Shown here: in pieces, positions 3,402-19,285 of the stretch
Position numbering within the stretch: position 1 is the stretch's first letter
Layout: each line of letters begins with the position of its first letter
DNA from: an uncultured Elusimicrobia bacterium
GTDB lineage: Bacteria; Elusimicrobiota; Elusimicrobia; UBA1565; UBA9628
NCBI GenBank assembly: GCA_964537395.1
Contig: CAZIBN010000007.1
Location: 2,843-66,842 of the forward strand
DNA length: 64,000 nucleotides
Reading direction: 5' to 3'
Position numbers and translations under genes: made by a program
Notes under the pieces: generated by a model
What the model was told of the DNA's origin: nothing
Seen by the model: the letters and a program-made list of their open reading frames with translations, nothing else
The model's database searches: none

Positions 3402-3468
3402 GTGTCAGGCCTACCGGTAGTTACAGTATTGAAGCGGCCAAACTGTAATTACCGGTAGGCCTGACACC
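3401..3468. repeat. large near-perfect palindrome (about 26-bp stem, 16-nt loop) with termini GGTGTCAGGC / GCCTGACACC
   Basis: GGTGTCAGGCCTACCGGTAGTTACAG..CTGTAATTACCGGTAGGCCTGACACC lies directly after the NTT stop. There is no T-tract. It shares outer arms with the element at 15917-16001. Confidence 0.6.
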
Positions 3469-3510
3469 ATGAATGGCTGAAGAAGTGGTATCATATTCGT
3501 ATAAACGAAT

Positions 3511-3846: not shown

Positions 3847-4253
3847 ATCGCCTGCCGACCGTCCTTTTTGTGTGCATCGAGAACTCCTGCCGGTCCCAGA
3901 TGGCCGAGGGCTTCGCCCGGCGCCACGGCGCGGGAAAGGTCGCGGCCTGGAGCTCGGGCTCGCGGCCCAGCGGAAAGGTCAACGAGACGGCGATCGCGCT
4001 CATGGAGGAGAAGGGCGTGGACATGTCCTCGCACCGCTCCAAGGGCCTGGCCGAGCTCCCGGCCCAGAAGTGGGACTATGTGATCACCATGGGCTGCGGC
4101 GACGCCTGCCCCTTCGTGCCCTCGCGGGGCAAGGAGGACTGGGCGATCCCCGATCCCAAGCATCTGTCCCCCGATGAGTTCCGCAAGGTCCGCGACCTGG
4201 TCGAGAGCAAGGTCAAGGATCTCATCGCGCGGGCCGTCAAGGCGGGCGCATGA
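3843..4253 (+). CDS. arsC: arsenate reductase, LMW-PTP/thioredoxin-coupled type
   Basis: Carries the CX5R P-loop ([17 protein letters not shown]). The ATG at 3843 overlaps the arsR stop (ATGA). Confidence 0.85.
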
Positions 4254-5281
4254 CCGGCGCCAAGCTGTCGTTTCTGGACCGATACCTCACGGGCTGGATC
4301 TTCGGTGCGATGGCTTTGGGCGTGGGGCTGGGCTATTTCCTTCCGGGGGTGCCGGCTTTCGTCAATCGCTTCCAGATCGGGACGACGAACATCCCGATCG
4401 CGATCGGCCTCATCCTGATGATGTATCCGCCGCTGGCCAAGGTGCGCTATGAGGAGCTCGGCGAGGTGTTCCGGGATAAGAAGGTCCTGACGCTCTCTCT
4501 CGTGCAGAACTGGTTCGTCGGCCCCGTCCTGATGTTCGTCCTGGCCGTGGTTTTTCTGCGCGGCTATCCCGAATACATGGTGGGCCTGATCATGATCGGC
4601 CTGGCGCGCTGCATCGCCATGGTCATCGTCTGGAACGAGCTCGCCGAGGGAGACAGCCAATACGCGGCGGGGCTTGTGGCCTTGAACAGCGTGTTCCAGG
4701 TCCTCTTCTACAGCCTCTACGCCTGGTTCTTCATCACGATATTGCTTCCGATGGTCGGGCAGTCCGGCTCCGTGGTCGACGTCGGCGTCGGAGACATCGC
4801 ACGGAGCGTGTTCATCTATCTGGGCGTTCCTTTCCTGGCCGGGATGGCGACGCGGTGGGCGCTGCTGCGTTCGAAGGGGAAAGAGTGGTACGAGTCCGTC
4901 TTCATCCCGCGCGTCAGCCCGCTGACCTTGCTGTCTCTGCTCTTCACCATCGTGGTCATGTTCAGCCTCAAGGGCAAGCTCATCGTGAGCCTTCCCCTTG
5001 ATGTCCTGCGCATCGCGCTGCCGCTTCTGATCTATTTCGCGGTGATGTTCCTCCTCAGCTTCTGGATGGGGCGCAAGGCGGGGGCGGATTACTCAAGGAC
5101 GGCGACCCTCGCTTTCACCGCCGCCGGCAACAATTTCGAGCTGGCCATCGCTGTGGCCGTGGCCGTGTTCGGCATCGACTCCGGGCAGGCCTTCGCCGCG
5201 GTCATAGGCCCGCTGGTCGAGGTGCCGGCCCTCATCCTGCTGGTGGACGCATCCTTGTTCTTTAAAAAACGTTTCTTCTGA
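4250..5281 (+). CDS. acr3: ACR3-family arsenite efflux permease
   Basis: 10-TM protein, [22 protein letters not shown]..., typical ACR3 length of 343 aa. The ATG overlaps the arsC stop. Confidence 0.85.
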
Positions 5282-5288
5282 GCTCGCT

Positions 5289-6002
5289 TCAGGCGAAGAT
5301 GAGCTTAAAGCCGGCGATGGCGAGGACGACGGCCAGCAGGCGCTTGATCGCGGCATGCGGCAGACGCGTGCTGCCGAGGTAGGAGCCCGCGGCCCCTCCG
5401 GCCAGCGCGGCAAGGGCGAGCGGCCAGGCGACGTTCGGAATGGAGCCGGTCTTGCTGAGATAGCCGGCCAGCCCTGACATGGAATTGACGAGGATGAACG
5501 CGGCGGAGACCGCGGCGATCGTTTTCGTGCCGTCCCATCTCAGGAATATCCCGAGCGGCGTGAGGAAGATTCCGCCACCGGTGCCGGTCAGCCCGGAGAG
5601 CAGGCCGAGCCCCGCCCCGACGCCGAGCGACACGGGCAGCGCCGGAGGCTTCGACGCCGGCTCCGCCGGAGGGTCGAGGAGAAAGCGCGCGGCGGAGGCC
5701 AGCAGGACCAGGCCGACGGCGATCTTGAAGGCCCGGGTAGGGAGGTTGAGCCAGCCGCCGAGGAACGCGCAGGGCACGGAGGCCAGCGCGAGCGGCCAGA
5801 ACAGCTTCCAGGAAAAGTGGCCGGCGCGCCGGAACTGCCACGAGGCGATCGTCGCGACGAGGATGTTGAGCGCCAGCGCCGTCGGCTTGACGATATCGGG
5901 CGCCAGGCCGAACAAGGTCATCACGGCGATATAGCCGGACGCTCCCGCGTGTCCCACGCACGAATAAAGAAAAGCGACGGCAAACACCGCGATGGCCAGC
6001 AA
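5289..6002 (-). CDS. TauE/SafE (DUF81, TSUP) family anion exporter
   Basis: Two-repeat 8-TM protein with glycine-rich loops (GLTGTGGGIFLTPL). Confidence 0.7.
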   Translation of the reverse strand: MLAIAVFAVAFLYSCVGHAGASGYIAVMTLFGLAPDIVKPTALALNILVATIASWQFRRAGHFSWKLFWPLALASVPCAFLGGWLNLPTRAFKIAVGLVLLASAARFLLDPPAEPASKPPALPVSLGVGAGLGLLSGLTGTGGGIFLTPLGIFLRWDGTKTIAAVSAAFILVNSMSGLAGYLSKTGSIPNVAWPLALAALAGGAAGSYLGSTRLPHAAIKRLLAVVLAIAGFKLIFA

Positions 6003-6005
6003 GAT

Positions 6006-6404
6006 CTATAAACGCGCGGACCAGCTGTTCGGGTCGAGCATCTCCCGGACCATCGTCACGAGGGCATCCATGTCCATCGGCTTGCGGAGGAAGCGCACGC
6101 GCGGCTCGGGGGGGATCTGGCTGGCGAAGCGCACGGCCTCCGTGCCGCTGATGAACAGCACCGGGAGCAGATTCGTTTCCTGCCGGGCGCGCAGGTCGGC
6201 GAGCAGCTGGACGCCGGTCTTGCGCGGCATCTGATAGTCGAGGATCGCGAGATCGGGATTCTCCTCGAGCGCGATGCGTTCGGCGGCCAACGGGTCGTGG
6301 CAGACGATGACGTCGTGGCCCTCGCCCGCGAGGCATTCCCGCAGGACTGCGGTCAGGGCCTCTTCATCGTCGACCACGAGTATCTTTGCCATCAGGTAGA
6401 GCAT
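6006..6404 (-). CDS. single-domain response regulator (CheY-like receiver)
   Basis: KILVVDDEEALTAVLRECLAGEGHDV...LAILDYQMPRKTG. An SD-like AAGAGG lies 5 nt upstream of the ATG at 6404. The ORF track extends to 6626, but that extension has no SD. Confidence 0.75.
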   Translation of the reverse strand: MLYLMAKILVVDDEEALTAVLRECLAGEGHDVIVCHDPLAAERIALEENPDLAILDYQMPRKTGVQLLADLRARQETNLLPVLFISGTEAVRFASQIPPEPRVRFLRKPMDMDALVTMVREMLDPNSWSARL

Positions 6405-6486
6405 AAAGACCTCTTGCGGCGCCGTCAAGTGCAGTGTGACCATACCGTGCTTGCGGGCACGCCTGGCGAGGGGTACACTATGAAGC

Positions 6487-8064
6487 GTGAAATTCCCCGT
6501 GCCGAGCGGCGAATCCGGATTCCTCGAATCGATCATCGATACGGTGGACGACCCTGTTTTCGTCAAGAACCGCGACCATCGCTGGGTGCTTTTCAACCAG
6601 GCGTTCGTCGTCCTTCTCGGGCACACGCGCGAGCAGCTCCTGGGAAAGTCGGATTACGATTTCTTCCCGAAGGCCCAGGCCGATGTGTTCCGGAGGCAGG
6701 ACGAGCTCGTCTTCGAGACGGGCCGTGAGAACTCCAATGAGGAGACTTTGACCGACGCGCAGGGGATGACCCATGTGCTGGTCACCAGGAAGAACCTTTG
6801 GACCTCGCCGGGCGGAGAGAAATACCTTGTTGGCGTGATCCGGGACATCACCGCGCTCGTTGGCGCGGCCGATGACGCCAAGCTGAGCAAAGAGCGGCTG
6901 TTCCGCGCGCATAAGCTGGAGACGCTGGGGAATGTGGCCGGCGGCGTGGCGCACGACTTCAATAATCTGCTCACGGCCATACGCGGCAGCGCGGGCCTTC
7001 TGCTCGAGAGCCTTCCGGCCAACCACCCGTCTCGCGTCGAGGCCGAGGAAGTCCTGCGCGCCGCGGAGCATGCCGCGACGCTGACGGCGAGGCTTCTGTC
7101 ATTCAGCCGGCGTCCCGACGGCATGCCGCGGCCCGTGGATCTTGCTGAGATCGTGAAGGGCATGCAAGAGGTGCTCCGGCGGCTGCTGCCCTCCAGCGTG
7201 GCATTGGATCTGGTCCTGCCGGAGAAGCTGGGCTCGGTCCTCGCCGATCCGGGGCTCATCGAGCAGGTGCTGCTTAATCTCGTCGTCAACGCCGGGGAGG
7301 CCCTGCCTAAGGGCGGAAACGTCACGATCGAGCTTGCGGGCGCGCCGAAAGGCGGGGCCGGTGTCGCCGGACCCTGCGTTCGTCTCACCGTGCGCGATGA
7401 CGGGGCCGGGATGACCGAAAAGGTCCGCGCGCGCATCTTCGAGCCGTTCTTCACGACCAAGGAGAGCGGAAGCGGCCTCGGGCTCTCGACGGTCGCTGAG
7501 ACCGTTCGCCGCAACGCGGGGGCCGTCGAGGTCGTCAGCGCGCCGGGCAAAGGCACCTCCTTCCACGTTTACTGGCCGTTGTGCGCGGGCAAGGCCGCGC
7601 CCGTCAAAAAAGCGAGAAGCGGGTCGAAGCCTGGGCAAGGACGCGGGCGGGCTCTCGTCGTCGACGATGACGATGCGGTGCGCCGCTTCCTGGTGCGCTG
7701 CCTGGAGAAGGAGGGCTACGAGGTCCTGTCCGCGAGAGAGCCTGTCGAGGCGCTGCGGATCGGCGATGCCAACGAAGGCCTCTTCGACCTGCTTGTGATC
7801 GACGTCGTGATGCCGCGGATGCGCGGGCCGGAGCTGGCTGCTCGCCTGCGCTTGCGCCAGCGCGAGGCGCGGGTGCTGTTCACCTCGGGCCGGCGTCGCG
7901 AGGATTGCGGCCTTCCCGAAGGCGAGGCGGCCGAATTCCTGGCAAAGCCCTTCTCGGCGAGAGATCTGACCGGGATCGTCAGCGGCGCGCGGCTCGGCGC
8001 AGGCGGTCCATCACGGCGCGCCCGACGCCCCGGTCCGGCACGGTCTCGACGTAAAGCGTCCTGA
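6487..8064 (+). CDS. hybrid sensor histidine kinase (PAS - HisKA - HATPase_c - receiver)
   Basis: H-box LETLGNVAGGVAHDFNNLLTAI, followed by an ATPase G-box (DDGAGMTEKV...GSGLGL) and a C-terminal receiver (ALVVDDDDAVRRF...LLVIDVVMPRMRG). The GTG at 6487 lies 7 nt after a TACACT hexamer. Confidence 0.85.
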   Translation: MKFPVPSGESGFLESIIDTVDDPVFVKNRDHRWVLFNQAFVVLLGHTREQLLGKSDYDFFPKAQADVFRRQDELVFETGRENSNEETLTDAQGMTHVLVTRKNLWTSPGGEKYLVGVIRDITALVGAADDAKLSKERLFRAHKLETLGNVAGGVAHDFNNLLTAIRGSAGLLLESLPANHPSRVEAEEVLRAAEHAATLTARLLSFSRRPDGMPRPVDLAEIVKGMQEVLRRLLPSSVALDLVLPEKLGSVLADPGLIEQVLLNLVVNAGEALPKGGNVTIELAGAPKGGAGVAGPCVRLTVRDDGAGMTEKVRARIFEPFFTTKESGSGLGLSTVAETVRRNAGAVEVVSAPGKGTSFHVYWPLCAGKAAPVKKARSGSKPGQGRGRALVVDDDDAVRRFLVRCLEKEGYEVLSAREPVEALRIGDANEGLFDLLVIDVVMPRMRGPELAARLRLRQREARVLFTSGRRREDCGLPEGEAAEFLAKPFSARDLTGIVSGARLGAGGPSRRARRPGPARSRRKAS

Positions 8065-8953
8065 CGCCCGCGGCTTCGGCGTCGCGCAGCGCCGAGAACA
8101 GCGCGGCCGCGTAGGGTCCCGCTCCGCCGCGTACGCGCACGGCGAACGCGGGACGCCGCCCCGGCCACGGCGCACGGTGCACGAGCCCGGCGCCCGCGCC
8201 GGACAGGCCGGCCAACGCTCCGCGCCGGATGAGCGCCGGCGGAACAAGGATCACACGGCACGATGGCGCGTAATGGCGGTGTTTGGTTCCGGGAGATAAA
8301 GGGGAGGAGCCTCCCGGAATCCGCAGGGGGGCGCCGGCCGCGCGGGAGATCGATTCTGCGGTCAAAGTCCCATGGCGCAGGACGACGGGCCGTTTCCCGC
8401 GCGCGTCCACGATCGCCGACTCGAGGCCTTTGCGGCAGGGCCCGCCGTCGAGTATGAGGGCCACGCGTCCGCGCAGGTCGCGCAGGACATGCGCCGCGGT
8501 CGTCGGGCTCGGACGTCCTGAGAGGTTCGCCGAGGGCGCGGCGATCGGCTCGCCGAGGGCGCGGATCAGGGCGCGCGCCGTGGGATGGCCGGGGCAACGC
8601 ACGGCGACGGTGCTCCCGCCTGCCGTGACGGCGCCGGGGACGCGCGCCGACTTCTCGAGTATCAAGGTGAGCGGGCCCGGCCAGAACGCGTCCATCAGGC
8701 GGCGCGCCAGCGGCGTCACCCGCTTGACGACGTCCGCGAGCATGGCCTCATCGCTGACGTGCACGATCAGGGGGTTGTCCGAGGGGCGTCCCTTCGCCTT
8801 GTAGACGCGGCGCGCGGCGGATGCATCGTAGGCGCGGGCGCCGAGCCCGTAGACGGTCTCCGTCGGGAAGGCGACCAGGCCGCCGCTATTGAGAAGTGCG
8901 ACGGCCGCAGCCAGGCTCTCTTTGCTCGGCCGGAGCACGCGCGTGCGGATCAC
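7979..8953 (-). CDS. tsaC: L-threonylcarbamoyladenylate synthase, Sua5 long form
   Basis: YrdC domain (AFPTETVYGLGA...KGRPSDNPLIVHV) plus a C-terminal Sua5 domain. Its 3' end overlaps the kinase 3' end by 86 nt in convergent orientation. Confidence 0.85.
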   Translation of the reverse strand: MIRTRVLRPSKESLAAAVALLNSGGLVAFPTETVYGLGARAYDASAARRVYKAKGRPSDNPLIVHVSDEAMLADVVKRVTPLARRLMDAFWPGPLTLILEKSARVPGAVTAGGSTVAVRCPGHPTARALIRALGEPIAAPSANLSGRPSPTTAAHVLRDLRGRVALILDGGPCRKGLESAIVDARGKRPVVLRHGTLTAESISRAAGAPLRIPGGSSPLSPGTKHRHYAPSCRVILVPPALIRRGALAGLSGAGAGLVHRAPWPGRRPAFAVRVRGGAGPYAAALFSALRDAEAAGVRTLYVETVPDRGVGRAVMDRLRRAARR

Positions 8954-9615
8954 GGCAGGGTGGCTTTGACGCGCGCCAGCTCGGCGAGGAAGTCGCCTTC
9001 CTTCAGCACGCGCGCGCAGATCCGGGCCCCGAGATCCTGGCCGGCGGCGACGTCGCTGGGGTGATGCACTCCGGCGATGACGCGAAGGTCGCCCGCGTCA
9101 CGGCCATGGGAGGCGAGTATGCCCGCGCGGTCCGGGAACAGGCGGCCCAGGACGCAGGCGTCGAAGACGCCGGCCGCGGCGTGGGTGCTCGGGTAGGACG
9201 TAGCGCCTCCCGGCTTCTCGATGCAGGGCTGCACGCGCGCGTCGGCGCTGTAAGGGCGCGGACGCGCGAACTTCTTTTTGTAGTAGCCGGAGACCTTGGA
9301 GAGGAATTTCGAGGCGGCGTTCACGAACGGCGCGACGGCGTCCGCTTCGGCCTTGGATAGGATGCCTGAGGCTCCGAACAGGGACTGGAAATCGGGTATC
9401 GCCTGCCCGGCGGCGAGCGCGCATTGCTCGGGCTTGCGCTCGGCCTGGAGCTTCAGCAGCTGCTCGTAGTCCCGGTCGGACTCGGGAGTGCCGGCGGCTG
9501 GAGGCGTCGCCATCGGGAAATCGGTCGACGGGATGTCCTGCCACGAGGCGGCGGCAGGCCCGGCGAGAAGGAGGGCTGAAAGGGCAAGGCGGGCGGGGAA
9601 GCACGCACGGTTCAT
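8950..9615 (-). CDS. secreted PAP2-family (class A acid) phosphatase
   Basis: Signal peptide. PAP2 motifs KKKFARPRP, YPSTHAA and GVHHPSDV. The stop overlaps the tsaC start. Confidence 0.8.
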   Translation of the reverse strand: MNRACFPARLALSALLLAGPAAASWQDIPSTDFPMATPPAAGTPESDRDYEQLLKLQAERKPEQCALAAGQAIPDFQSLFGASGILSKAEADAVAPFVNAASKFLSKVSGYYKKKFARPRPYSADARVQPCIEKPGGATSYPSTHAAAGVFDACVLGRLFPDRAGILASHGRDAGDLRVIAGVHHPSDVAAGQDLGARICARVLKEGDFLAELARVKATLP

Positions 9616-9621
9616 GGGTTC

Positions 9622-9705
9622 ATTATACCGCGCCGGCCCCGTCCGTCAAGGGCCCAAAACCGGGGCCCGGGCGGAGTTGACGGCGTGCATACGGGGGGGT
9701 ATACT
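9622..9705. promoter_or_regulatory. back-to-back divergent sigma70-like promoters driving leaderless PAP2 and PPK2 transcripts
   Basis: Plus strand: TTGACG (9677-82), 17-nt spacer, TATACT (9700-05), 6 nt, ATG at 9712. Minus strand: TTGACG (9649-44), 16-nt spacer, TATAAT (9627-22), 6 nt, ATG at 9615. Confidence 0.65.
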
Positions 9706-9711
9706 GCGCTC

Positions 9712-11181
9712 ATGTTCGAGAGCGCGGAAGTCGGCCGTTCGGTGGAGAAGAAGGAGTACGAGAAGCGCGTCGCGGTCCTGCGCACTCGCATTCTCAAGGC
9801 TCAGCAGGCCCTGGCCGTCACAAGCCTGCGGCTTGTCGTCGTCGTGGGCGGCGTCGAGGGCGGAGGCAAGACCGAGGTCGCGCGCCGCTTCCTCGATTGG
9901 ATGGATCCGCGCGGCCTGAGCGTCGAGGCCTACGGAGAGCCTTCCAACGAGGAGGACGAGCGGCCCGAGTACTGGCGCTACTGGCGCACCTTGCCCTCCG
10001 GTGGACGCGGGGCGGTGCTGGTGGGCTCGTGGTACACCCGGCCCATCGTTCGCCGCACCTTCAAGGAGATCGGCTCCGGCGACTTCGATCAGGCGCTCGA
10101 TCGGGCGATGGCCTTCGAGGCCATGCTGGTCCGCGAGCAGACCGTGCTGGTGAAGCTGTGGCTTCACCTGTCCAAGAAGGGCCAGAAGCGCCGCTTCAAG
10201 GAGCTCGAGTCCGACCGCGACACCGCGTGGCGCGTGACCAAGCAGGATTGGGAGTTCTCCAAGAAATACGACCGCTTCCGAGAGGTGTGCGAGAGGGCGC
10301 TGACCAAGACCAGCGTCGCCCACGCGCCGTGGACGGTGATCGAGGCGACCGACCACCGTCATCGCGATCTGGCCGCGGGCGAGGCGGTGCTGGCGGCGCT
10401 CGAGGCCGCGCTCAAGCCGTCCTCGGCGCCGGCCGCCAAGCCCGTGCCGGACCGCGCGAAGCCGCCGAAGATCTCGATCCTCAGCCGTCTCGACCTGACC
10501 CAGCGGCTCGAGGAGGAGGATTCGAAGAAATTCCAAAAACAGCAGACGCGCGTGGCGCTCCTGTCGCGGCGCCTGCGCAAGGAGGGGCGCTCCCTTATCT
10601 GCGCCTTCGAGGGCGTGGACGCCGCGGGCAAGGGCGGCGCCATCCGCCGGCTGCTCTCCGCCATCGATGTCCGTAATGCGCGGGTCATGGCCGTGGCCGC
10701 GCCCACGGACGAGGAGCGCGAGCACCCGTACCTGTGGCGGTTCTGGCGCAACCTTCCGCGCCTGGGTCGTGCCACGATCTACGACCGCAGCTGGTACGGA
10801 CGCGTGCTCGTCGAGCGCGTCGAGGGCTTTTGCCCGGCGGAGGATTGGAAGCGCGCCTACTCCGAGATCGTGGACTTCGAGTCCGAGCTGGCCGAGGCCG
10901 GGACCATCGTCTGCAAGTTCTGGCTGCAGATCTCGCCCGAGGAGCAGCTGAAGCGCTTCAAGGAACGGGTCAAGACCCCGTTCAAGCACTACAAGATCAC
11001 CGAGGACGATTGGCGCAACCGCGGCAAGTGGGACGCCTATCAGGCCGCGGCCGTCGACCTGATCGAGAAGACGAGCACGCCCGACGCGTCCTGGACGCTC
11101 ATCGAGGCCGAGGACAAGCGATGGGCGCGGTTGAAGGTCATGAAGACCGTGGCGGATCGTCTCGAGGAAGAGCTGGGTTGA
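9712..11181 (+). CDS. ppk2: two-domain polyphosphate kinase 2 (polyP:AMP phosphotransferase type)
   Basis: Tandem PPK2 domains with Walker-A-like GVEGGGKT and FEGVDAAGKGG. Conserved EYWRYWRTLP and YLWRFWRNLP follow each. Confidence 0.85.
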   Translation: MFESAEVGRSVEKKEYEKRVAVLRTRILKAQQALAVTSLRLVVVVGGVEGGGKTEVARRFLDWMDPRGLSVEAYGEPSNEEDERPEYWRYWRTLPSGGRGAVLVGSWYTRPIVRRTFKEIGSGDFDQALDRAMAFEAMLVREQTVLVKLWLHLSKKGQKRRFKELESDRDTAWRVTKQDWEFSKKYDRFREVCERALTKTSVAHAPWTVIEATDHRHRDLAAGEAVLAALEAALKPSSAPAAKPVPDRAKPPKISILSRLDLTQRLEEEDSKKFQKQQTRVALLSRRLRKEGRSLICAFEGVDAAGKGGAIRRLLSAIDVRNARVMAVAAPTDEEREHPYLWRFWRNLPRLGRATIYDRSWYGRVLVERVEGFCPAEDWKRAYSEIVDFESELAEAGTIVCKFWLQISPEEQLKRFKERVKTPFKHYKITEDDWRNRGKWDAYQAAAVDLIEKTSTPDASWTLIEAEDKRWARLKVMKTVADRLEEELG

Positions 11182-13172
11182 GGATCGGCATCGGGCTGGG
11201 CACGGGTAAAGATCCCGCCAAGGCCGCGCGCGACGCGGTGCGTCAGGCCAAGAAGGCCGTGCCGCGACCTTCGCTAGCGCTCGTTTTTGCCGGTGTGAAG
11301 TTGGACCAAAAAAAGGTCCACGCGGCGCTGTGCCGCGTCCTCGACCCGGCCATTCTCATCGGTGGTTCCTCCTACGCCGAGATCACGCCTGCGGGCGTGA
11401 GCAAAAATTCCGTGGCGGTGCTCCTGCTCGACTACCCTCAGGCGGGCTTCGCCTTCGCGGGCTCGTGCATCGGCAAGGATCCCGCCGGCGCCGGAGAAAG
11501 GATGGCGGATGCTCTGGGGCCGCCGCCGAAACGCTGCCAGCTGGGGCTGGTGCTCTCCGGCGTCAGCGACGGACGCGACGATCGTCTGCTGCGCAAGCTT
11601 CACGAGCGGTTTCCGGGCATGCCGTTTTTCGGCGGGGTGCCTTCGGGCGACCACGACGCGGGCATGGAGAGCCCGCTGTTCTCGAAGGGCTGGCAGTACG
11701 TCGGGTCGAAGCTCGAAACCGAGGCCGCGAGCCTGACGATGATCGACCTGCCCTCGGACGTCGGCCTTGGCTTCGGCTTCGAGCATGGCTGGAGCCCGGT
11801 CGGGCCGCTGGCGCGTGTGACCAAGGCGGATGGAGCCCGTGTCATGGAGGTCGATGGCATACCCGCGATCGACTATTACCGGCAGTTCTTCGGCGCCGAC
11901 GCCTCGCGCGAGGTGATGCTCCGTTCCATCCAGCGCTTCGGCTTCGCGTTGCATCTTGAGGGGGAGTATGCCGGAAAGACCTTGATGAAGCTTCCCGTGC
12001 GAATGGATTTCAAGAAGGGCTGGATCGAGTACTATCCGCCCGAAGATCTGCAGGGCCGCCGGGTCCAGCTCATCGCGGCCAGCCGTCAGGGGCTTATCGG
12101 GGGCGCGCGTGAGGCCGCGCGGCGCGCGCTCAATGCGCTCAAGGGCCGCAAGCCCTCGCTCGTGCTCGCCGTCTCCTGCTGCACGCGCTCGTCGTGGCTC
12201 AACAGCCGCATCGACCTCGAGATGGACGCGGCGCGCGAGGTCTTCGGTCGGAACACCCCATTCTTCGGCTTCTACTCGGGCGGCGAGCTTCTTCCATTCC
12301 TGAGCAGCTTCGAGGAGGCCTCCGACGCGTCGCTGCCGTTTGGCGGCTCGTTCTATCATACGACCACGGTCGGCTTCATGGCCTTATCGGTCCCGGGCCG
12401 GGCGAAGGTGTCGGTTCCCAAGGATCTGCCTGCCGCCTGCCGCGCCGCCCAGACCCCGGAATACATGCTCGCGCGCAGCGAGACCGCCATCGACGATACC
12501 GAGTCCTTCATGGCCAATCTCAGCCGCAAGAGCGTCGAAGACGCCGCTAAGCTGCGCCTGCAGACCGAGGTCATCCGCCGCTACACGCCTCACAACGTCT
12601 GGAAGGCGGTCGGCGCGCGCGCGGCCAAGGGCGTGTACGAGCTTCCCGACGCCGCCTTCGACGGCGCCTTTCTATTCATGGACGTGAAGGGCTTCACCTC
12701 CTATTCCGAGAAGCACGCGCCGCGACAGGTCGTGGCCGCGCTCAACAAGATACTCGGCCCGGCCGCCGACCTGATCCACGCCAACGGCGGCGACGTGGAC
12801 AAGTTCGTCGGCGACTGTATCTTCGCCGCCTTCCGCAGGCCTGAGAGGGCCGTGGAGGCCGGACGCCGGATCCTCGATCTGGTCTCGCGCTTGGCCGCCG
12901 AAGGCGGCCCGTTCTCCGTGCGCATCGGCATCAACGCCGGCCGCGCCGTGCGCGCCAACGTGGGCTCCGGCGACCGCCGCGAGTACACCTACATCGGCGA
13001 CGCGGTCAACCTGGCCCAGCGCCTGGAGTCGAACGCGACTCCGGGGACCATGCTCGTCTCGGCGTCGGTGTACGTGCGCGTGAAGAAGAAGTGGCCGTGC
13101 CTCACGCGCAAGAAGCTGCTGGTGAAGGGCAAGAAGAAGGCCGTGACGGCCTACGAGCTTGTGGCCCGCTAG
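11178..13172 (+). CDS. FIST-domain sensor fused to a class III adenylate/guanylate cyclase catalytic domain
   Basis: N-terminal FIST_N/FIST_C (SLALVFAGV...SLVLAVSCCTRSSW). C-terminal cyclase motifs FLFMDVKGFTS, KFVGDCIFAAF, VRIGINAGRAV and YTYIGDAVNLAQRLES. A TTG at 11178 overlaps the ppk2 stop (TTGA) and follows an SD-like GAGGAAGAG. Confidence 0.75.
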   Translation: MRIGIGLGTGKDPAKAARDAVRQAKKAVPRPSLALVFAGVKLDQKKVHAALCRVLDPAILIGGSSYAEITPAGVSKNSVAVLLLDYPQAGFAFAGSCIGKDPAGAGERMADALGPPPKRCQLGLVLSGVSDGRDDRLLRKLHERFPGMPFFGGVPSGDHDAGMESPLFSKGWQYVGSKLETEAASLTMIDLPSDVGLGFGFEHGWSPVGPLARVTKADGARVMEVDGIPAIDYYRQFFGADASREVMLRSIQRFGFALHLEGEYAGKTLMKLPVRMDFKKGWIEYYPPEDLQGRRVQLIAASRQGLIGGAREAARRALNALKGRKPSLVLAVSCCTRSSWLNSRIDLEMDAAREVFGRNTPFFGFYSGGELLPFLSSFEEASDASLPFGGSFYHTTTVGFMALSVPGRAKVSVPKDLPAACRAAQTPEYMLARSETAIDDTESFMANLSRKSVEDAAKLRLQTEVIRRYTPHNVWKAVGARAAKGVYELPDAAFDGAFLFMDVKGFTSYSEKHAPRQVVAALNKILGPAADLIHANGGDVDKFVGDCIFAAFRRPERAVEAGRRILDLVSRLAAEGGPFSVRIGINAGRAVRANVGSGDRREYTYIGDAVNLAQRLESNATPGTMLVSASVYVRVKKKWPCLTRKKLLVKGKKKAVTAYELVAR

Positions 13173-14632
13173 GGGATCAGGATGCCGGCGATGTTGGCGG
13201 TCATGAAGGTGGCGATGGCGCCGACCACCATGGCCTTGAGGCCGAGCTTGGCGAGGTCGTGGCGGCGCGTGGGGGCGATGCCGGAGATGCCTCCGATCTG
13301 GATCGCGATCGAGGAGAAGTTCGCGAAGCCCGAGAGCGCGTAGCTCACGATGACGACCGAGCGGTGCGTGAGAGGCTGGCCCGACTTGAGGATGTCGGTT
13401 AGCTGCAGGTACGCGACGAACTCATTGAGAACGGTCTTGACGCCGATGAGCTTGCCCACCGTCCAGCAATCCTGCGTGGGCACGCCCATGAGCCAGGCGA
13501 GCGGCCAGCCGAGGACGGCCAGCAGGTTCTCGAGGCTGATCTGCGGGTAGCCGACCCAGACCCCGGCGGCCTTGAGCATCCCGTTGAGCATCGCGATCAG
13601 GGCGATGAAGGCCAGGAGCATCGCGGCGACGTTGAAGGCGAGCGCCAGGCCTTCGGAAGCGCCGCGCGCGGCCGCGTCGATCACGTTCGCGTCGAGCTTC
13701 TCGCGGCCCATCTTGACGTGCCCGAGCGTCTTGGGGATGCCGGTCTCGGGCATCGCGATCTTCGCGCACACGAGCGCCGCCGGGGCGGACATCACGGACT
13801 GGGCGATCAGATGGCCGGCGATGTCGGGGAAGTACGGGTGAAGCATGCCGACATACGCCGCGAGCACGCCGCCCGCGGTGTTGGCGAAGCCGCCGACCAT
13901 GACGGCCAGGAGCTCGGAGTTGGTCATCTCCGCGACGTAGGGCTTGACCACGAGCGGGGCCTCGGTCTGGCCGACGAATATGTTCGCGGCCGTGGACAAA
14001 GTCTCGGCGCCGGAGGTCTTCATCGTCTTGAACATGACGACCGCGAAGATGTCGACGATCCACTGCATGATCCCGATGTGATAGCCGACGGTCATGAGCG
14101 CGGAGACGAAGATGATGGTGGGCAGGACGTTGAAGGCGAAGTTGATCATCGGCGCCTCGATCTTGCCGGTGATGAAGGAGCCGAACAGGAACTTCGTGCC
14201 CTCGCCCGTGAAGCCGAGAAGCGCCATCGTCCCGTCGTTGAGCTTCGAGAAGAACCACAGGCCGGGCGTGGTCTTGAGGACGATGATGCCGAAGATGAGC
14301 TGAAGCGCCATGCCCCAGGCGACGAGCGTCCAGTTGATCTTCTTGCGATCGGTGGACATCAGCCAGCACAGCCCGACCAGGGCGAACAGGCCGAAGAAGG
14401 AGGTCGAGCGCTGGAGGACTGTGCTGGGCGGCTCCGCCGCCCTGCGAGCTTCCATCTCCGCGCGGATCAGATCGGCCTGGGACGGGGCGTCCGCGGATGC
14501 GGCGGAGGCCGCGGCCTTCTCCTTTGGGACGGCGGCTGAGAAGGCGGCGGTTCCGAGGGCTCCGAAGAGGCCGCATAGAGCGAAAAGGGCCCAAACACGT
14601 CCGAGGCGGCGCACCGAGGGGGGGAGGGTCAT
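13169..14632 (-). CDS. nupC: concentrative nucleoside transporter (NupC/CNT family)
   Basis: CNT core motifs (GFANTAGG, GISGIAP) with a roughly 80-aa N-terminal extension. TACAAT lies 6 nt upstream of the ATG at 14632 (leaderless). Confidence 0.8.
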   Translation of the reverse strand: MTLPPSVRRLGRVWALFALCGLFGALGTAAFSAAVPKEKAAASAASADAPSQADLIRAEMEARRAAEPPSTVLQRSTSFFGLFALVGLCWLMSTDRKKINWTLVAWGMALQLIFGIIVLKTTPGLWFFSKLNDGTMALLGFTGEGTKFLFGSFITGKIEAPMINFAFNVLPTIIFVSALMTVGYHIGIMQWIVDIFAVVMFKTMKTSGAETLSTAANIFVGQTEAPLVVKPYVAEMTNSELLAVMVGGFANTAGGVLAAYVGMLHPYFPDIAGHLIAQSVMSAPAALVCAKIAMPETGIPKTLGHVKMGREKLDANVIDAAARGASEGLALAFNVAAMLLAFIALIAMLNGMLKAAGVWVGYPQISLENLLAVLGWPLAWLMGVPTQDCWTVGKLIGVKTVLNEFVAYLQLTDILKSGQPLTHRSVVIVSYALSGFANFSSIAIQIGGISGIAPTRRHDLAKLGLKAMVVGAIATFMTANIAGILIP

Positions 14633-14680
14633 GGAGGAATTGTAGCATGGGGTCGCGCGAACTTTTCTATGCTCTCCCCC

Positions 14681-15913
14681 ATGAACAAGGATGCCTCCAA
14701 GCGCAACGCGGCCGCCGCCGTCCTCCTCGCGGCCCTCGGCTATTTCGTCGATATCTACGACCTGATCCTGTTCAGCATCGTGCGCGTGGCGAGCCTCAAG
14801 GACATCGGGGTCGCCCCGGAAAAGATGCTCGACACCGGCCTCCTGTTGATCAACATGCAGATGATCGGCATGCTGATCGGCGGGCTGCTGTGGGGCATCC
14901 TCGGCGACAAGAAAGGGCGGCTGTCGGTTCTGTTCGGCTCGATCGCGATGTACTCGATCGCCAACATCGCCAACGGCTTCGTTCACTCGATCCCTGCCTA
15001 CGCTGTCTGGCGCTTCGTCGCCGGGATCGGCCTCGCGGGAGAGCTCGGCGCGGGCATCACGCTCGTCTGCGAGCTGATGCCCAAGGAGACCCGCGGCTAC
15101 GGCACGATGGTCGTGGCCGGCGTCGGCATCGCGGGCGGCGTCGTGGCCGGCCTCGTCGGCGACTGGTTCGGCTGGCGCAACGCCTACTTCATCGGCGGCG
15201 CGATGGGCCTGGCCTTGCTGACCTTGCGCGTCGGCGTCTACGAGTCGGGCATCTTCGACAAGGTGCTCAAGGATTCTTCGGTCAAGCGCGGCGATTTCTT
15301 CATGCTGTTCGCGACCAAGGATCGAGTGCTTCGCTATCTGTCCTGCATCGCGCTCGGCATCCCGGTCTGGTTCGTGATCGGCATACTCGCGACCTTCGCG
15401 CCCGAGTTCGGCAAGGCGCTGGAGATGCCCGTTCTTCCGACCGGCTCCCGCGCGGTGATGTGGCTGTACGCCGGCTGCGCGCTGGGCGATTTCGCGAGCG
15501 GCGGCCTGAGCCAGCTGCTGCGCAGCCGCAAGAAGGCGGCGCTTATCTTTGTAATCGCGACGGCCATGACGTGCGCGGTGTATCTGAATCTTCAGGGCGC
15601 TTCGCTTCGAACGTTCTACTGGACCTGCGGCTTTCTTGGGTTCTTCTCCGGCTACTGGGCGATCTTCGTGACCATCGCCTCAGAGCAGTTCGGCACGAAC
15701 ATCCGTGCGACTGCGACCACGACCGTCCCCAACTTCGTTCGCGGCTCGCTGGTCGTCGTATCGGCCTTGTTCCAGTTCCTTAAGCCGGGTCAGGGCATAC
15801 TCGGCGCCGCCGGCATCGTCGGCACGCTCTGCTTCGCCCTGGCCCTGTTCTCGCTTTTGGGCTTGCGCGAAACCTTCGCCAAAGACCTCGACTACCTAGA
15901 ACCCCACATGTAA
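14681..15913 (+). CDS. MFS transporter
   Basis: 12 TM. MFS motif GILGDKKGR. TATGCT lies 7 nt upstream of the ATG at 14681. An alternative ATG is at 14669. Confidence 0.75.
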   Translation: MNKDASKRNAAAAVLLAALGYFVDIYDLILFSIVRVASLKDIGVAPEKMLDTGLLLINMQMIGMLIGGLLWGILGDKKGRLSVLFGSIAMYSIANIANGFVHSIPAYAVWRFVAGIGLAGELGAGITLVCELMPKETRGYGTMVVAGVGIAGGVVAGLVGDWFGWRNAYFIGGAMGLALLTLRVGVYESGIFDKVLKDSSVKRGDFFMLFATKDRVLRYLSCIALGIPVWFVIGILATFAPEFGKALEMPVLPTGSRAVMWLYAGCALGDFASGGLSQLLRSRKKAALIFVIATAMTCAVYLNLQGASLRTFYWTCGFLGFFSGYWAIFVTIASEQFGTNIRATATTTVPNFVRGSLVVVSALFQFLKPGQGILGAAGIVGTLCFALALFSLLGLRETFAKDLDYLEPHM

Positions 15914-15916
15914 GGC

Positions 15917-16007
15917 GGTGTCAGGCTTTCACATTCGCGCAATTCTCACCGCGCCGCTCCATCCCGCATGAGGAATTGCGCGAATGTGAAAGCCTGACAC
16001 CTTTTTT
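15917..16007 (+). terminator. rho-independent terminator: 29-bp perfect stem (termini GGTGTCAGGC/GCCTGACACC) plus T6
   Basis: GGTGTCAGGCTTTCACATTCGCGCAATTC..GAATTGCGCGAATGTGAAAGCCTGACACC followed by TTTTTT, directly after the MFS stop. It shares outer arms with the element at 3401-3468. Confidence 0.75.
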
Positions 16008-16016
16008 AAGCTGCGC

Positions 16017-19000
16017 CTATTGTGTCTTCAGCCAGCGAGCGAGCTTGAGGTAGACGAGCGCGACGCCGGTGTAGAAGGCGGCGAACATCCAGAAGGTCGC
16101 TGTGCCGAAGCCAGCGAACAAGCCGCCCCACAGCAGGAAGCCCGCGACGAAGCTCAGGTAGGTCAAGGTTCGGATCGCGCCGAGGATGCTGCCCGCGAGC
16201 GCCTTGTCCTCCTTGGGGATGCGGTCCTTCATGATGGTGTCGAGGTGGATGATCGCCATCTGGCTCGTGAAGCCGATCAGGAGCAGGAGCGGGGAGATCG
16301 GGAAGATCGGCCATACGAAGGTGAACAGCACGGTCTGGCTGACGAAGGCCCAGGAGCCGAGCATCGCGGCCGCGGTCCAGATCAGGGACTTGGCCGCGCT
16401 CTTTGCGTATAGCTTGCGGCCCGCGTCATCGCGCTCAGCCTCGGGCAGCAGCGCGGTCTTCTTATCGATGAGGCGGCTAAGGCGGTCCATCGCGAGCGCG
16501 CCGAACAGCGCTCCCACGCCGTAGAGGCCGGTCAGCGATCCCGCGACGGCGGCCGCGTGCTTCGGATCGCCGGCGACGTAGGCGCCGAAGGCCGTGGCGA
16601 TGATGTAGTACATCATGTACAGGAAGCTGGAAAGAAGGATGTATCCTAAAAGGGGCTTGGCGATGCCGGGGTTCTTGAACACGCCACGGAAGCCCGCGCC
16701 CCAGCCCGCTTTCTTCGCCTCGACGGCCGCGGCCGGCGTGGCCTTGGGCAGCTTGAGCAGGAAGGCCAGGCCCGCCGCGATCGCGAAGGCGACGGGCGCG
16801 GGGTAGATCACCGCGCCGAAGCCGAATGCGGCGATGGCGAGGCCCATCGCCGAGGCGACGAACACGGTCCCGTACTCGATGAAGTCACGGAAGGAGCCGA
16901 AGCGGCTCGACGAGGTCGGCTTGTCGTGGAACCAGGCGACCTGGAGCTTGTGCTCGGCGACGCGGCCGATCGAGTGGAAGAAGTAGTCGAGGCTGAACAG
17001 GCCGATGAGTGCTGCGAGCGGCAAGGTGCCGGTCAGCGGGTTGAACAGCAAGGCGATCGTGATCCAGATGCCGGTGCGCACGGTGAGGACGGTGCGGTAG
17101 GTGCGGCTGATGCCGAACTTATCCACCCAGCGGCCGCCGAACAGCGCGCCGGCGGTGTAGGCGAGGTAGCTCACGACGGTCAGGCCCGCGAGCGCCAGGA
17201 AGCCCTGGGTCAGCGGCTGGGTCATTTGGGAAACGGCGAGCGAGGTCGACTCGACGACGGTCGAGACGAGCACGAAGGTCGAGAGGAAGCCGAGCACGAC
17301 CTTAGAGAAGAGCCCAGGTGCAGGCGTCGGCGCGGCTTCCGCCGCAGGCGGAAGCTGCGACGACGGGGACTGCGTCTTCAGTTCCGGTACGAGGTCCTGA
17401 GCAGTCGGCTGCTGATAGTCGCCGCGCGCGCGCACGATCTCGCCGTTGTCGCGCTTGATCTTCAGGACCAGGCGGCGCGAGGCCAGGAGCGCGGAGCGGA
17501 TCGCGTCGCGCCAGGTCTTGCCCTTGCCGATGATCTCCGCCCACTCTTCATAGGCGTTGCCCTTGGCCGCGACGATGCGGTCGCCCGCCTCGACGAACAC
17601 TCGCGCGAGCTCGACGCCGGGAACCTTGCGCGCGGCCTCGAGGCCTTCGACGGACTCGAGCGTGCCGTTGCGGCTGGAGGCGAGGAAGGTGTAATGGATG
17701 ACGCCGTCGGGCGTGTGCCCGGGGTCGACCTTCAGGCCGAGTATGGAGCGCAGTCCTTGTTCCACGAGACTCATGCCGGTCAGGCTCTTCACTGCCTGCC
17801 AGATCGCGACGCCGCCCATGAAGGGATTGATCTCGATGACGCGCGGGCCGTCGGGGGTGGAGAACAGGTCGAGGCGCGCGTTGCCGTCTTTGAGGCCGAG
17901 CGCCTTGAGGGCGCGCTCGGAGGCGGCGATGAGCTCAGCGTGGTCCGCGACGGCCGTCTGTCCGGGGAACACGAGAATGCCGCCGGCGAGCTCGCCCTTC
18001 TGCCCTAGGCCCTTGGTATCGGAGACGATCGCGAAGGCGGCCTTGCCGTCCTGCATGACGACCTCGACGGAGGTCTCCTCGGTGCCCGGGTTCTTCTCGA
18101 GCATGCGCTCCATCATGAGGCCCGGGTGCGTGCTGAAGGTGGTCTGCCTGGCTTCGGGGCGGGCGACGAAGTCGCGCACGGCCGCGTCCATCTTGAGGTA
18201 GGCGGCGGCGGCCTCGTTCTCGGACTTGATGTTTAGGTCGAGGAAGCGGCTGTTCTCGCCGCGGCTGGTCTTGATCATGACCTTGTACTTGCCTTCCTCG
18301 GAGATCTCGTGGTACGCCTGGCGCGCCTCCTTCTCGCTTCCGATCACCGCGTACGCGACGTGCTGGCTCGCGTCCACGTTGAGGCGCTTGCGTGCCTCCG
18401 GCTTGTTGTCGGCCGCGGCGACGACATCGCCGGCGATGCCTTTTGCGCCGAGCTTGTCGGTGATCCTGCCGGTCAGGCTCGCGTACAGGCTCATGAAGCC
18501 GACGACCGCGTGCGCCTTCGCGCCTTCGGGGTGCGCGGCGACGGTCTCCGCGATCTTGCCCATCGTCTTGCCGTCGCGGGTGTTGATGGGCGCGGCGATG
18601 AAATTCGAGTCCGGAATGCTGTCGATGGAATTCTTGCGGTTCGCGGGATCGTCCACGAGCACGAGGTTGAGCCCGAGCTCCTTGGCGACGCGCAGAGCTT
18701 CCTGCATGATGAACGGGCGCGAGCCCTTCGTGCCGACCATGACGACGGTCTTGCCGCGAACCGCCGCTTCCGCCGCGGCCGCGGGAGAGAGCGCGATGAC
18801 GGACGCAGGCTGTGCCGAGGCGGGAGAAGGGCTCGCGGGCTCCGGCAGCGCCGAGGCGGCCGGGAGGATCGGGGCCTGTGCGGCGATCGCGGCCGGAACG
18901 GAGGCGCGTTCGAGAGGAACCGGCGCGCCCGAGGCCTGCAACGAAGGAGCGGACAGCGAGCCGAACGAAGGAGAGAGGAGCGATATGACGGATACGTTCG

Positions 19001-19151: not shown

Positions 19152-19285
19152 TGAGTGTGATGTTAGCACGCGGTAACCGCGCACGTTGTCAAAATTGGTC
19201 CCACTCGGGGGAGGCAATCGCACTACCTTTACAGTGGGACCTTCGACTCTCGATGGTGGGTCCAAGGTCCCCGCGCCGGAAGAAA

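What the first reader, a model, noticed from the sequence alone, without database searches (positions are those of the whole stretch)
9712..13172. Two-domain PPK2 translationally coupled to a FIST-sensor class III nucleotide cyclase
The ppk2 stop overlaps a TTG start (TTGA) of a gene encoding a FIST_N/FIST_C ligand-binding module fused to a complete class III cyclase catalytic domain. Both metal Asp residues, the GD(C)IFAAF motif and RIGINAG are present. Two-domain PPK2s regenerate ADP from AMP using polyphosphate. The pairing suggests a link between polyphosphate and adenylate status and cAMP or cGMP signalling. FIST domains are thought to sense amino acids or other small ligands. A FIST-cyclase fusion coupled to PPK2 is not a described arrangement.
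Basis: partly seen in the sequence, partly recalled or inferred. Interest (0 to 1): 0.6.

Follow-up and report, generated by a model that had tools for sequence, protein, structure and literature searches.

The report
PPK2 and FIST adenylate cyclase operon
A polyphosphate-using AMP kinase gene and a sensor-linked cAMP-making enzyme gene do overlap by four bases and form a small operon here, but related bacteria have repeatedly split the pair or lost the cyclase, so it is an ordinary, optional arrangement and not a fixed signalling module.

Summary
ppk2 (9712-11181) is a full-length two-domain polyphosphate:AMP phosphotransferase. Its TGA stop overlaps the TTG start (TTGA, 11178-11181) of a 664-aa protein with FIST_N, FIST_C, a long helix and a complete class III cyclase domain. 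All catalytic residues are present, and the Lys/Thr pair predicts cAMP, not cGMP. Homologous loci place the start at the same codon.

The FIST-cyclase architecture is already a populated, database-annotated but uncharacterised family: at least 159 homologs, mostly Elusimicrobiota, and most of those examined have no PPK2 nearby. PPK2 sits upstream only in one monophyletic clade (cyclase at least 64% identical). Within that clade the pair is labile:
- Four loci have 1.4-6.2 kb of unrelated genes inserted between the two genes.
- One contig keeps ppk2 next to an in-frame deletion remnant of the cyclase.
- Three close PPK2 orthologs have no cyclase nearby; two of these loci, one in a complete genome, are otherwise syntenic with the window.

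So the operon is real and ancestral to the clade, but dispensable. A biochemical link between polyphosphate or AMP and cAMP remains speculation. The FIST ligand is unknown, and the protein is not a NosP equivalog.

The parts
9677..9705 (+). Sigma-70-like promoter TTGACG-N17-TATACT. It ends 6 nt before the ppk2 ATG, so the transcript may be leaderless. It probably drives both genes.
   Evidence: 10 of 12 consensus matches; 3 promoter-like sites found in the region against 0.3 expected from shuffles. The same TTGACx/TAnAnT pair lies upstream of ppk2 in L013, L045, L092 and L098.
9712..11181 (+). ppk2: two-domain polyphosphate:AMP phosphotransferase (PA3455 type), 489 aa. P-loops are GGVEGGGKTE (aa 46, N-terminal domain) and GVDAAGKGG (aa 301, C-terminal domain).
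   Evidence: Pfam PPK2 x2, E 2.5e-130. NCBIfam TIGR03708 equivalog 630.7 bits, above the 547.65 cutoff. Full-length match to PDB 3CZP, E 1.2e-147. P-loop positions.
11164..11168 (+). Shine-Dalgarno-like GAGGA inside the 3' end of ppk2, 9 nt before the TTG start.
   Evidence: Read from the sequence. GAGGAG or GAGGCG-like purine runs occupy the same place in L002, L004 and L005. Its function is inferred.
11178..11181 (+). TTGA: the start codon of the cyclase gene overlaps the stop codon of ppk2.
   Evidence: The same NTGA overlap occurs in L002, L004, L005, L013, L092 and L098.
11178..13172 (+). FIST-sensor class III (IIIb-type) adenylate cyclase, 664 aa, soluble.
   Evidence: Pfam hits. AlphaFold2 model with mean pLDDT 86.5. 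Catalytic residues invariant across 38 homologs.
11274..12296 (+). FIST_N (aa 33-227) plus FIST_C (aa 230-373) sensor module. Family-invariant residues include H203, C334 and H394.
   Evidence: The FIST-only model has pLDDT 92.1 and pTM 0.91, and its best PDB fold match is the FBXO22 FIST domain (E 2.3e-9, TM 0.61).
12456..12584 (+). Long helix (about aa 427-469) linking the sensor to the cyclase. It is the presumed signalling helix or coiled coil of a dimer.
   Evidence: Secondary structure of the model, helix 426-468 with lower pLDDT in the monomer model. The helix plus cyclase aligns to OaPAC and bPAC over about 228 columns. Dimerisation is inferred.
12669..13148 (+). Class III cyclase catalytic domain (aa 498-657): D502 and D546 (metal), K542 and T604 (adenine), N611 and R615 (transition state).
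   Evidence: Foldseek TM 0.81 to Spirulina CyaC (1wc0) and 0.80 to P. aeruginosa CyaB (3r5g).
13169..13172 (.). CTAG: the stop codon of the cyclase (+) and the stop codon of the convergent nupC (-) overlap. This marks the end of the operon.
   Evidence: nupC matches the TIGR00804 NupC/NupG family at 422.5 bits, just below the model's 442-bit cutoff.

Best explanation
ppk2 and the FIST-cyclase gene form a two-gene operon in this Elusimicrobiota-like genome. It is read from a near-consensus promoter that abuts the ppk2 ATG. The cyclase TTG start overlaps the ppk2 TGA stop, and a GAGGA lies 9 nt upstream, so cyclase translation probably follows ppk2 translation.

The first product is a PA3455-type two-domain PPK2, which phosphorylates AMP to ADP at the expense of polyphosphate. 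The second is a soluble, presumably homodimeric class IIIb adenylate cyclase. An N-terminal FIST_N/FIST_C module, whose ligand is unknown, is connected by a helix of about 45 residues to a fully competent catalytic domain that should make cAMP.

The arrangement arose once, at the base of one clade, and was inherited. The cyclase sits in a variable slot between ppk2 and nupC. In relatives that slot has repeatedly gained other genes or lost the cyclase. The coupling is therefore best read as shared expression, not as an obligate biochemical partnership.

Shown here: gene identities, the overlap, the start codon, intact catalytic residues, the phylogenetic distribution and the lability of the pair. 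Inferred: co-transcription, translational coupling, dimerisation, both enzyme activities and the absence of direct interplay.
For: Identities:
- Searches identify PPK2: TIGR03708 above its cutoff, and PDB 3CZP at E 1.2e-147.
- Searches identify the FIST fold and the class III cyclase with invariant D/D/K/T/N/R.

Operon:
- The promoter at 9677-9705 is the only strong (+)-strand promoter-like site in 9400-13500; one weak 9-of-12 match lies inside the cyclase gene at 12796-12823.
- The promoter is conserved in relatives, and the overlap is conserved.

Single origin:
- PPK2-linked cyclases form one clade in the cyclase tree.

Lability:
- L103 has 2 genes (1.4 kb), L095 3 genes (3.4 kb), L101 4 genes (4 kb) and L102 8 genes (6.2 kb) between ppk2 and the cyclase.
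- L045 has ppk2 followed by a 1731-nt in-frame deletion remnant of the cyclase.
- Three close PPK2 orthologs (72-84% identical) have no cyclase within 8 kb: the P0288 contig, L104 and L105. The P0288 contig shares the window's neighbouring gene families. L105, from complete genome CP096137.1, aligns to window 1941-20013 apart from two segments, one of which is exactly 11188-13168. L104 has unrelated neighbours.
- These states are interleaved on the PPK2 tree.
- About 30 FIST-cyclase loci at 29-57% identity have no PPK2.
- PPK2 is the only recurrent neighbour, and only within the clade.
Against: - The pair kept its 4-nt overlap while the cyclase diverged to 65% identity. In L092 and L098 the downstream neighbour differs (a response regulator in place of nupC). 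That hints at some selection for keeping the two genes together.
- No transcript data exist.
- Contig-length matching, used to estimate how many PPK2 contigs also carry the cyclase, is only a heuristic.
- Apart from L105, the cyclase-less cases come from metagenome contigs, so a cyclase copy elsewhere in those genomes cannot be excluded.
Confidence: 0.7

Rival explanations
1. The pair is a true functional module linking polyphosphate and adenylate status to cAMP. PPK2 might recycle AMP, the end product of cAMP breakdown. It might sustain the ADP/ATP pool that feeds the cyclase under energy limitation. Or the FIST module might sense an adenylate or polyphosphate-related ligand produced or consumed by PPK2.
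For: - The overlap and co-orientation are conserved in at least 8 distinct loci spanning 65-90% cyclase identity.
- PPK2 is the only recurrent neighbour of this cyclase.
- Both enzymes act on adenine nucleotides (family knowledge: TIGR03708, and the class III Lys/Thr pair).
Against: - Natural variants carry either partner alone or have the two genes uncoupled.
- Most FIST-cyclases have no PPK2 nearby.
- Most close PPK2 orthologs on long contigs share no contig with a FIST-cyclase.
- No PPK2-cyclase fusion appears among the 120 closest PPK2 homologs.
- No paper in the searched library links PPK2 to a cyclase.
Confidence: 0.13
2. The FIST module is a NosP/CdpA-like heme-based sensor. The protein would then be an NO-, heme- or redox-regulated adenylate cyclase, a bacterial cAMP analogue of soluble guanylate cyclase. 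PPK2 would be an unrelated operon passenger.
For: - FIST-FIST_C proteins NosP and CdpA are reported to bind heme and/or NO (PMC8846402, PMC12570481).
- His203, Cys334 and His394 are invariant in the FIST module of the family.
- There is a weak N-terminal match to the NosP model (E 1.2e-8).
Against: - The NosP equivalog score is 34.5 bits against a cutoff of 450, and only residues 10-92 match.
- No NosP structure is available for comparison. The best fold match is the non-heme FBXO22 FIST domain.
- The heme ligands of NosP could not be retrieved, so the invariant His and Cys residues are not shown to correspond to them.
Confidence: 0.15
3. The overlap is an annotation artefact. The cyclase would really start at the upstream ATG 11121, giving a 61-nt overlap, or at a downstream codon, so there would be no TTGA coupling.
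For: ATG 11121 is in frame and has GAGGA 6 nt upstream.
Against: - ATG 11121 is absent in L002, L004 and L005.
- All homologs start at the codon aligned with 11178, and L001 homology begins exactly there.
- The family consensus begins MRIGIGLG.
- The FIST_N match already starts at aa 33, and strand 2-7 is part of the fold.
Confidence: 0.02

Closest known systems
P. aeruginosa PA3455 (PDB 3CZP), two-domain PPK2 / polyphosphate:AMP phosphotransferase (TIGR03708)
   Same: It aligns end to end (residues 1-485 to 3-491, E 1.2e-147). Both have two PPK2 domains and the same C-terminal P-loop context (DAAGKGGAIRR). The window protein scores above the NCBIfam equivalog cutoff.
   Different: The N-terminal-domain P-loop reads GGGKTE where PA3455 has GAGKGE. 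Activity was not tested here. The genomic context is Elusimicrobiota, with a cyclase gene overlapping the stop codon.
Sensor-helix-class IIIb adenylate cyclases: OaPAC (5x4t/4yus), bPAC (5m27), Spirulina CyaC (1wc0), P. aeruginosa CyaB (3r5g)
   Same: The catalytic fold matches (TM about 0.8). The motifs are identical in pattern: F-x-D, K-F-x-G-D-C, Y-T-x-x-G-D-A-V-N-x-A-x-R-L-E. The Lys/Thr adenine pair is shared. A long N-terminal helix precedes the catalytic domain, as in the photoactivated cyclases.
   Different: The sensor is a 400-residue FIST_N/FIST_C module, not BLUF, GAF or MASE. The ligand is unknown. No member of this FIST-cyclase family has been characterised in the searched literature.
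NosP (NF041558) and V. cholerae CdpA, the experimentally studied FIST-FIST_C sensors
   Same: The same Pfam FIST and FIST_C domains act as an N-terminal or stand-alone sensor controlling a second-messenger output (PMC8846402).
   Different: NosP is a single-domain partner of a histidine kinase, and CdpA has an EAL output. Here the output is a fused adenylate cyclase. The sequence does not reach NosP equivalog level (34.5 bits against 450). Heme binding is untested.
FBXO22 FIST domain (8ua3, 8s7d), the best-matching solved structure and the only FIST-domain protein among the PDB fold matches
   Same: It is the best structural match to the predicted sensor module (E 2.3e-9, TM 0.58-0.61).
   Different: It is a eukaryotic F-box substrate receptor with only 10-12% identity and an unrelated function.

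Membership tests
Two-domain PPK2 / polyphosphate:AMP phosphotransferase (TIGR03708) | Two tandem PPK2 (PF03976) domains in one polypeptide of about 490-500 aa | tested here: met
   Pfam PPK2 hit as 2 stretches, E 2.5e-130. 489 aa.
Two-domain PPK2 / polyphosphate:AMP phosphotransferase (TIGR03708) | Score above the curated equivalog cutoff, with full-length profile coverage | tested here: met
   630.7 bits against a cutoff of 547.65. Residues 2-488 match profile positions 1-493 of 493. The alternative model NF050016 is below its cutoff (380.9 against 800).
Two-domain PPK2 / polyphosphate:AMP phosphotransferase (TIGR03708) | Polyphosphate-dependent AMP to ADP activity | not testable with these tools
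   Inferred from homology to PA3455/3CZP and from what is established for that family.
Class III nucleotidyl cyclase (PF00211), adenylate-specific, subclass IIIb | Cyclase homology domain above the Pfam gathering score | tested here: met
   77 bits against 21.9. Fold TM 0.81 to CyaC.
Class III nucleotidyl cyclase (PF00211), adenylate-specific, subclass IIIb | Two metal-binding Asp residues, plus the transition-state Asn and Arg | tested here: met
   D502, D546, N611 and R615 are present and invariant in 38 homologs. They align with the OaPAC motifs.
Class III nucleotidyl cyclase (PF00211), adenylate-specific, subclass IIIb | Substrate-defining Lys plus Asp/Thr for ATP (Glu plus Cys/Ser would indicate GTP). 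Thr at the second position marks subclass IIIb. | tested here: met
   K542 and T604 are invariant. The same K...T pattern is seen in OaPAC. The assignment rule is taken from established knowledge of the family.
Class III nucleotidyl cyclase (PF00211), adenylate-specific, subclass IIIb | Homodimeric active site and cAMP production | not testable with these tools
   Only a monomer model was made.
FIST sensor domain (PF08495 + PF10442) | Both FIST_N and FIST_C above their gathering scores, in that order | tested here: met
   98.9 bits against 23.2, and 61.1 bits against 28.5. The confident model's best fold match is FBXO22 FIST.
NosP (NF041558), heme-based NO sensor | Equivalog-level similarity over the whole 368-position model | tested here: not met
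   34.5 bits against a cutoff of 450. Only residues 10-92 match.
NosP (NF041558), heme-based NO sensor | Heme binding and an NO-dependent change in output | not testable with these tools
   No structure or ligand-residue map was available.
Conserved functional gene pair (operon retained by selection) | Adjacency retained across the family and across rearranged flanks | tested here: inconclusive
   Retained with the overlap in at least 8 loci of one clade. Broken by insertions in 4 loci, deleted in 1, and absent beside 3 close PPK2 orthologs and in about 30 more distant FIST-cyclase loci.

The most novel reading that the evidence does not exclude
In this Elusimicrobiota clade the FIST-cyclase may be a genuine readout of polyphosphate or adenylate energy status. 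For example, the FIST module might bind AMP, ADP or short polyphosphate, or PPK2 might supply nucleotide locally to the cyclase. The operon would then encode a polyphosphate-to-cAMP signalling link that some lineages later lost. Separately, the FIST module could be a heme/NO sensor, which would make this a gas-regulated adenylate cyclase; no FIST-linked cyclase has been characterised in the searched literature.
Probability: 0.12. Interest if true: 0.6.

Novelty: new member of a known kind. Interest (0 to 1): 0.28.

Why it matters
If the coupling were functional, it would connect polyphosphate energy storage to cAMP signalling, a link with no described precedent in the searched literature. The comparative data argue that the link is optional. 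The remaining value is more modest. FIST-linked adenylate cyclases form a sizeable, experimentally untouched family, mainly in Elusimicrobiota. The natural variants found here (coupled, separated, cyclase-deleted) are a ready-made comparison set for anyone wishing to test the ligand of a FIST sensor with an easy enzymatic readout.

Tried and rejected
- Alternative start ATG 11121: rejected, because it is not conserved and homology begins at 11178.
- NosP membership: rejected at equivalog level.
- Solved FIST homolog by sequence: none found, only cyclase-domain hits. By fold, only FBXO22 and distant Toblerone-fold hydrolases.
- PPK2-cyclase fusion proteins (Rosetta-stone evidence): none among the 120 closest PPK2 homologs, which carry only PF03976, sometimes with P-loop kinase models.
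- Family-wide conserved neighbour of the FIST-cyclase: none besides the clade-restricted PPK2.
- Literature on FIST plus adenylate cyclase, or PPK2 plus cyclase/cAMP: only incidental two-hybrid mentions. The Borziak and Zhulin FIST paper is not held in the library.
- cAMP effector in the window: no cNMP_binding domain in about 45 ORFs scanned. There is one GAF-PAS protein at 48315-49199.
- RNA elements: Rfam finds only tRNA-Pro at 26510-26582.
- Cyclase remnant in the cyclase-less syntenic genome L105: none at E < 0.05.
- The first impression that L001, L012 and L100 'lack PPK2' was revised. For L012 and L100, ppk2 lies 4-6 kb upstream on the same contig. L001 has only 1.5 kb of upstream sequence and remains undetermined.
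Full report
**The observation**

The window is 64-71% G+C. The finding region holds two same-strand ORFs with strong third-position GC bias.

ORF 9712-11181 encodes 489 aa. It hits Pfam PPK2 as two stretches (E 2.5e-130). It passes the NCBIfam equivalog model for polyphosphate:AMP phosphotransferase, TIGR03708, at 630.7 bits against a cutoff of 547.65. It aligns end to end with the two-domain PPK2 PA3455 (PDB 3CZP, E 1.2e-147).

The next ORF in its frame is open from 10734, but the sequence at 11175-11183 is gggTTGAgg. TTG 11178-11180 therefore overlaps the ppk2 stop TGA 11179-11181. Translated from 11178, the 664-aa product passes the gathering scores for FIST_N, FIST_C and Guanylate_cyc.

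**The start codon**

An in-frame ATG at 11121 with its own GAGGA was a possible alternative. Five related loci settle the matter. Each starts at the codon aligned to 11178: L001 TTG, L002 GTG, L003 ATG, L004 TTG, L005 GTG. The 11121 ATG is not conserved. Nucleotide homology between L001 and the window begins exactly at 11178. A GAGGA lies 9 nt upstream of the TTG, inside ppk2.

**Transcription**

The 96-nt gap between ppk2 and the divergent PAP2 phosphatase gene holds two near-consensus promoters. On the + strand, TTGACG-N17-TATACT spans 9677-9705. On the - strand, TTGACG-N16-TATAAT spans 9649-9622. Each ends 6 nt before its ATG. Three promoter-like sites were found in the region, against 0.3 expected.

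The ppk2 promoter recurs in L013, L045, L092 and L098. No comparable promoter precedes the cyclase gene. The cyclase stop overlaps the stop of the convergent nupC gene (CTAG at 13169-13172). The simplest reading is a bicistronic ppk2-cyclase transcript.

**What the cyclase is**

In an alignment of 38 homologs, the two metal-binding Asp residues (D502, D546), the substrate-defining pair (K542, T604) and the transition-state residues (N611, R615) are all invariant.

The closest solved proteins by sequence are adenylate cyclases: OaPAC, CyaB, bPAC and CyaC. By fold the catalytic domain matches CyaC at TM 0.81. By established knowledge of class III cyclases, Lys plus Thr indicates ATP specificity and subclass IIIb. 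The expected product is therefore cAMP, not cGMP.

The full-length AlphaFold2 model (pLDDT 86.5) shows three parts: a FIST module at residues 1-405, a long helix at about 426-468, and the cyclase domain at 490-661. A FIST-only model (pLDDT 92.1, pTM 0.91) finds the FBXO22 FIST domain as its best PDB match (E 2.3e-9).

The ligand is unknown. The experimentally studied FIST proteins, NosP and CdpA, are reported to bind heme and/or NO (PMC8846402, PMC12570481). This protein scores only 34.5 bits against the NosP model, whose cutoff is 450. Invariant His203, Cys334 and His394 are noted but not interpreted.

**Is the fusion new?**

No. A database search returned 159 homologs at E <= 1e-10. All but two truncated entries among the 120 listed carry the same three Pfam domains. 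Where a source names the organism it is an Elusimicrobiota MAG, and many are already named 'class 3 adenylate cyclase' or FIST-domain protein. Genome contigs add members from UBP16 and Muiribacteriota at about 30% identity.

An exhaustive profile search of 50%-identity representatives lists roughly 25 clusters that match the profile over its full length, as a FIST-cyclase would. No paper in the searched library describes a FIST-linked cyclase.

**Is the pair conserved? Seen from the cyclase side**

I collected 105 loci and searched each for PPK2.

- PPK2 lies directly upstream, with the NTGA overlap, in the window, L013, L002, L004, L005, L092/L093 and L098/L099. In L003 there is a 10-nt gap instead.
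- These cyclases are 65-90% identical to the window's and form one clade in a neighbour-joining tree.
- No PPK2 occurs in about 30 loci at 29-57% identity.
- In an all-against-all clustering of flanking ORFs, PPK2 is the only recurrent neighbour, and only within that clade.

**Is the pair conserved? Lability inside the clade**

Several close relatives at first seemed to lack PPK2: L001, L012 and L100, at 87-92% identity.

PPK2-centred look-ups showed that ppk2 is still on the same contig in two of them, but separated from the cyclase:
- 4 genes (4 kb) in L101, which is the L012 contig.
- 8 genes (6.2 kb) in L102, which is the L100 contig.
- 2 opposite-strand genes (1.4 kb) in L103.
- 3 genes (3.4 kb) in L095.

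L045 carries ppk2 followed by only the first 5 or so and the last 79 codons of the cyclase. This is a 1731-nt in-frame deletion, and nupC follows it.

Three close PPK2 orthologs have no cyclase within 8 kb:
- The 637-kb contig of P0288 (PPK2 84% identical), where ppk2 abuts nupC directly.
- L104 (77% identical), where an ankyrin-repeat gene follows ppk2.
- L105, from the complete genome CP096137.1 (72% identical). It aligns to window 1941-20013 with only two segments missing: 8956-9671 (the PAP2 gene) and 11188-13168 (the cyclase gene).

On a PPK2 tree the coupled, separated and cyclase-less states are interleaved, and the basal group has the cyclase. The parsimonious history is one origin of the coupled pair, followed by several independent insertions and losses.

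As a rough further indication, only 3 of 17 close PPK2 orthologs on contigs longer than 50 kb share a contig length with any FIST-cyclase contig. This is a heuristic.

**Interpretation**

The operon is real here and ancestral to a clade. Both partners occur naturally without the other or uncoupled from it, so an obligate biochemical dependence is unlikely. The cyclase sits in a variable slot downstream of ppk2, inside an otherwise conserved block: Sua5, ppk2, nupC, an MFS transporter and an amino-acid-ligase/MFS fusion.

Persistence of the 4-nt overlap down to 65% cyclase identity leaves room for a modest selective benefit of co-expression. A functional link between polyphosphate or AMP and cAMP cannot be excluded, but nothing positive supports it beyond adjacency.

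**Verdict**

Both genes are new members of known kinds. The FIST-cyclase family is uncharacterised and would repay biochemical work. The PPK2 pairing itself is of low to moderate interest.

Noticed in passing
window 9616-9711: Two divergent near-consensus sigma-70-type promoters: (+) TTGACG-N17-TATACT at 9677-9705 and (-) TTGACG-N16-TATAAT at 9649-9622. Each ends exactly 6 nt before the ATG of its gene (ppk2 at 9712, the PAP2 phosphatase gene at 9615). This suggests leaderless mRNAs on both sides. More distant relatives (L092, L098) have a 20-24 nt leader with a GGAGG instead.
   Followed up: partly
window 13169-13172: The stop codons of the cyclase gene (+) and the convergent nupC gene (-) overlap as CTAG, leaving no intergenic space for a terminator. 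In relatives (L012, L013, L005, L002) 0.9-2.5 kb of other sequence lies between these two genes.
   Followed up: partly
L045 3886-4135 (contig Ga0163144_10112892): A natural in-frame 1731-nt deletion of the FIST-cyclase, corresponding to window 11193-12923. It has about 9 nt of overlap at the junction and leaves ppk2, a mini-ORF of about 84 codons, and nupC. L012 comes from the same sample and has the intact cyclase 4 kb away from ppk2.
   Followed up: partly
L103 about 3260-3305; L100 about 4010-4030; L014 about 118-140: Cyclase copies not coupled to ppk2 share a conserved upstream element, GGCTACGATGGTCGGGTGA. TACGAT looks like a -10 box, and in L100 it is preceded by TTGCAT-N17 and followed 6 nt later by the GTG start. 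Uncoupled copies therefore seem to carry their own promoter. The element occurs in different subclades of the cyclase tree, which may hint at recombination of a cyclase cassette.
   Followed up: no
window 8950-9615 (-): A PAP2/PhoC-like acid phosphatase gene with an N-terminal signal-like sequence. It is an indel relative to complete genome CP096137.1, where window 8956-9671 is absent. Other relatives have two unannotated genes (about 611 and 174 aa) in that position. Together with nupC, ppk2, Sua5 and an MFS/TLC-like transporter (1575-3401), the neighbourhood has a nucleotide or nucleoside scavenging flavour.
   Followed up: partly
window 16017-19316 (-): A 1099-aa ORF combining an L-amino-acid-ligase (ATP-grasp, LAL_C2) region with a C-terminal MFS transporter domain. 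It is conserved in CP096137.1 (L105, 1037 aa). This is an unusual enzyme-transporter fusion.
   Followed up: no
window 20844-24458 (+): A 1204-aa LonB-like protease (AAA_32, LonB lid, Lon_C) whose first 700 or so residues have no Pfam match. The P0288 contig has a counterpart at the corresponding position with the same three Pfam domains.
   Followed up: no
proteins P0134, P0145-P0147, P0149, P0154-P0157: Very large proteins (1,200-2,400 aa) contain two to four stretches matching the FIST-cyclase profile, with the best-scoring stretch in its FIST part. They may be giant multi-FIST signalling proteins.
   Followed up: no
L012 2397-4001 / L101 9398-10495: Where a beta-lactamase-family gene has replaced ppk2 as the upstream neighbour, its stop also overlaps the cyclase start by 4 nt. 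The second codon of the cyclase begins with A, so any upstream gene in the right frame ends in NTGA. The overlap alone therefore says little about a specific partnership.
   Followed up: partly
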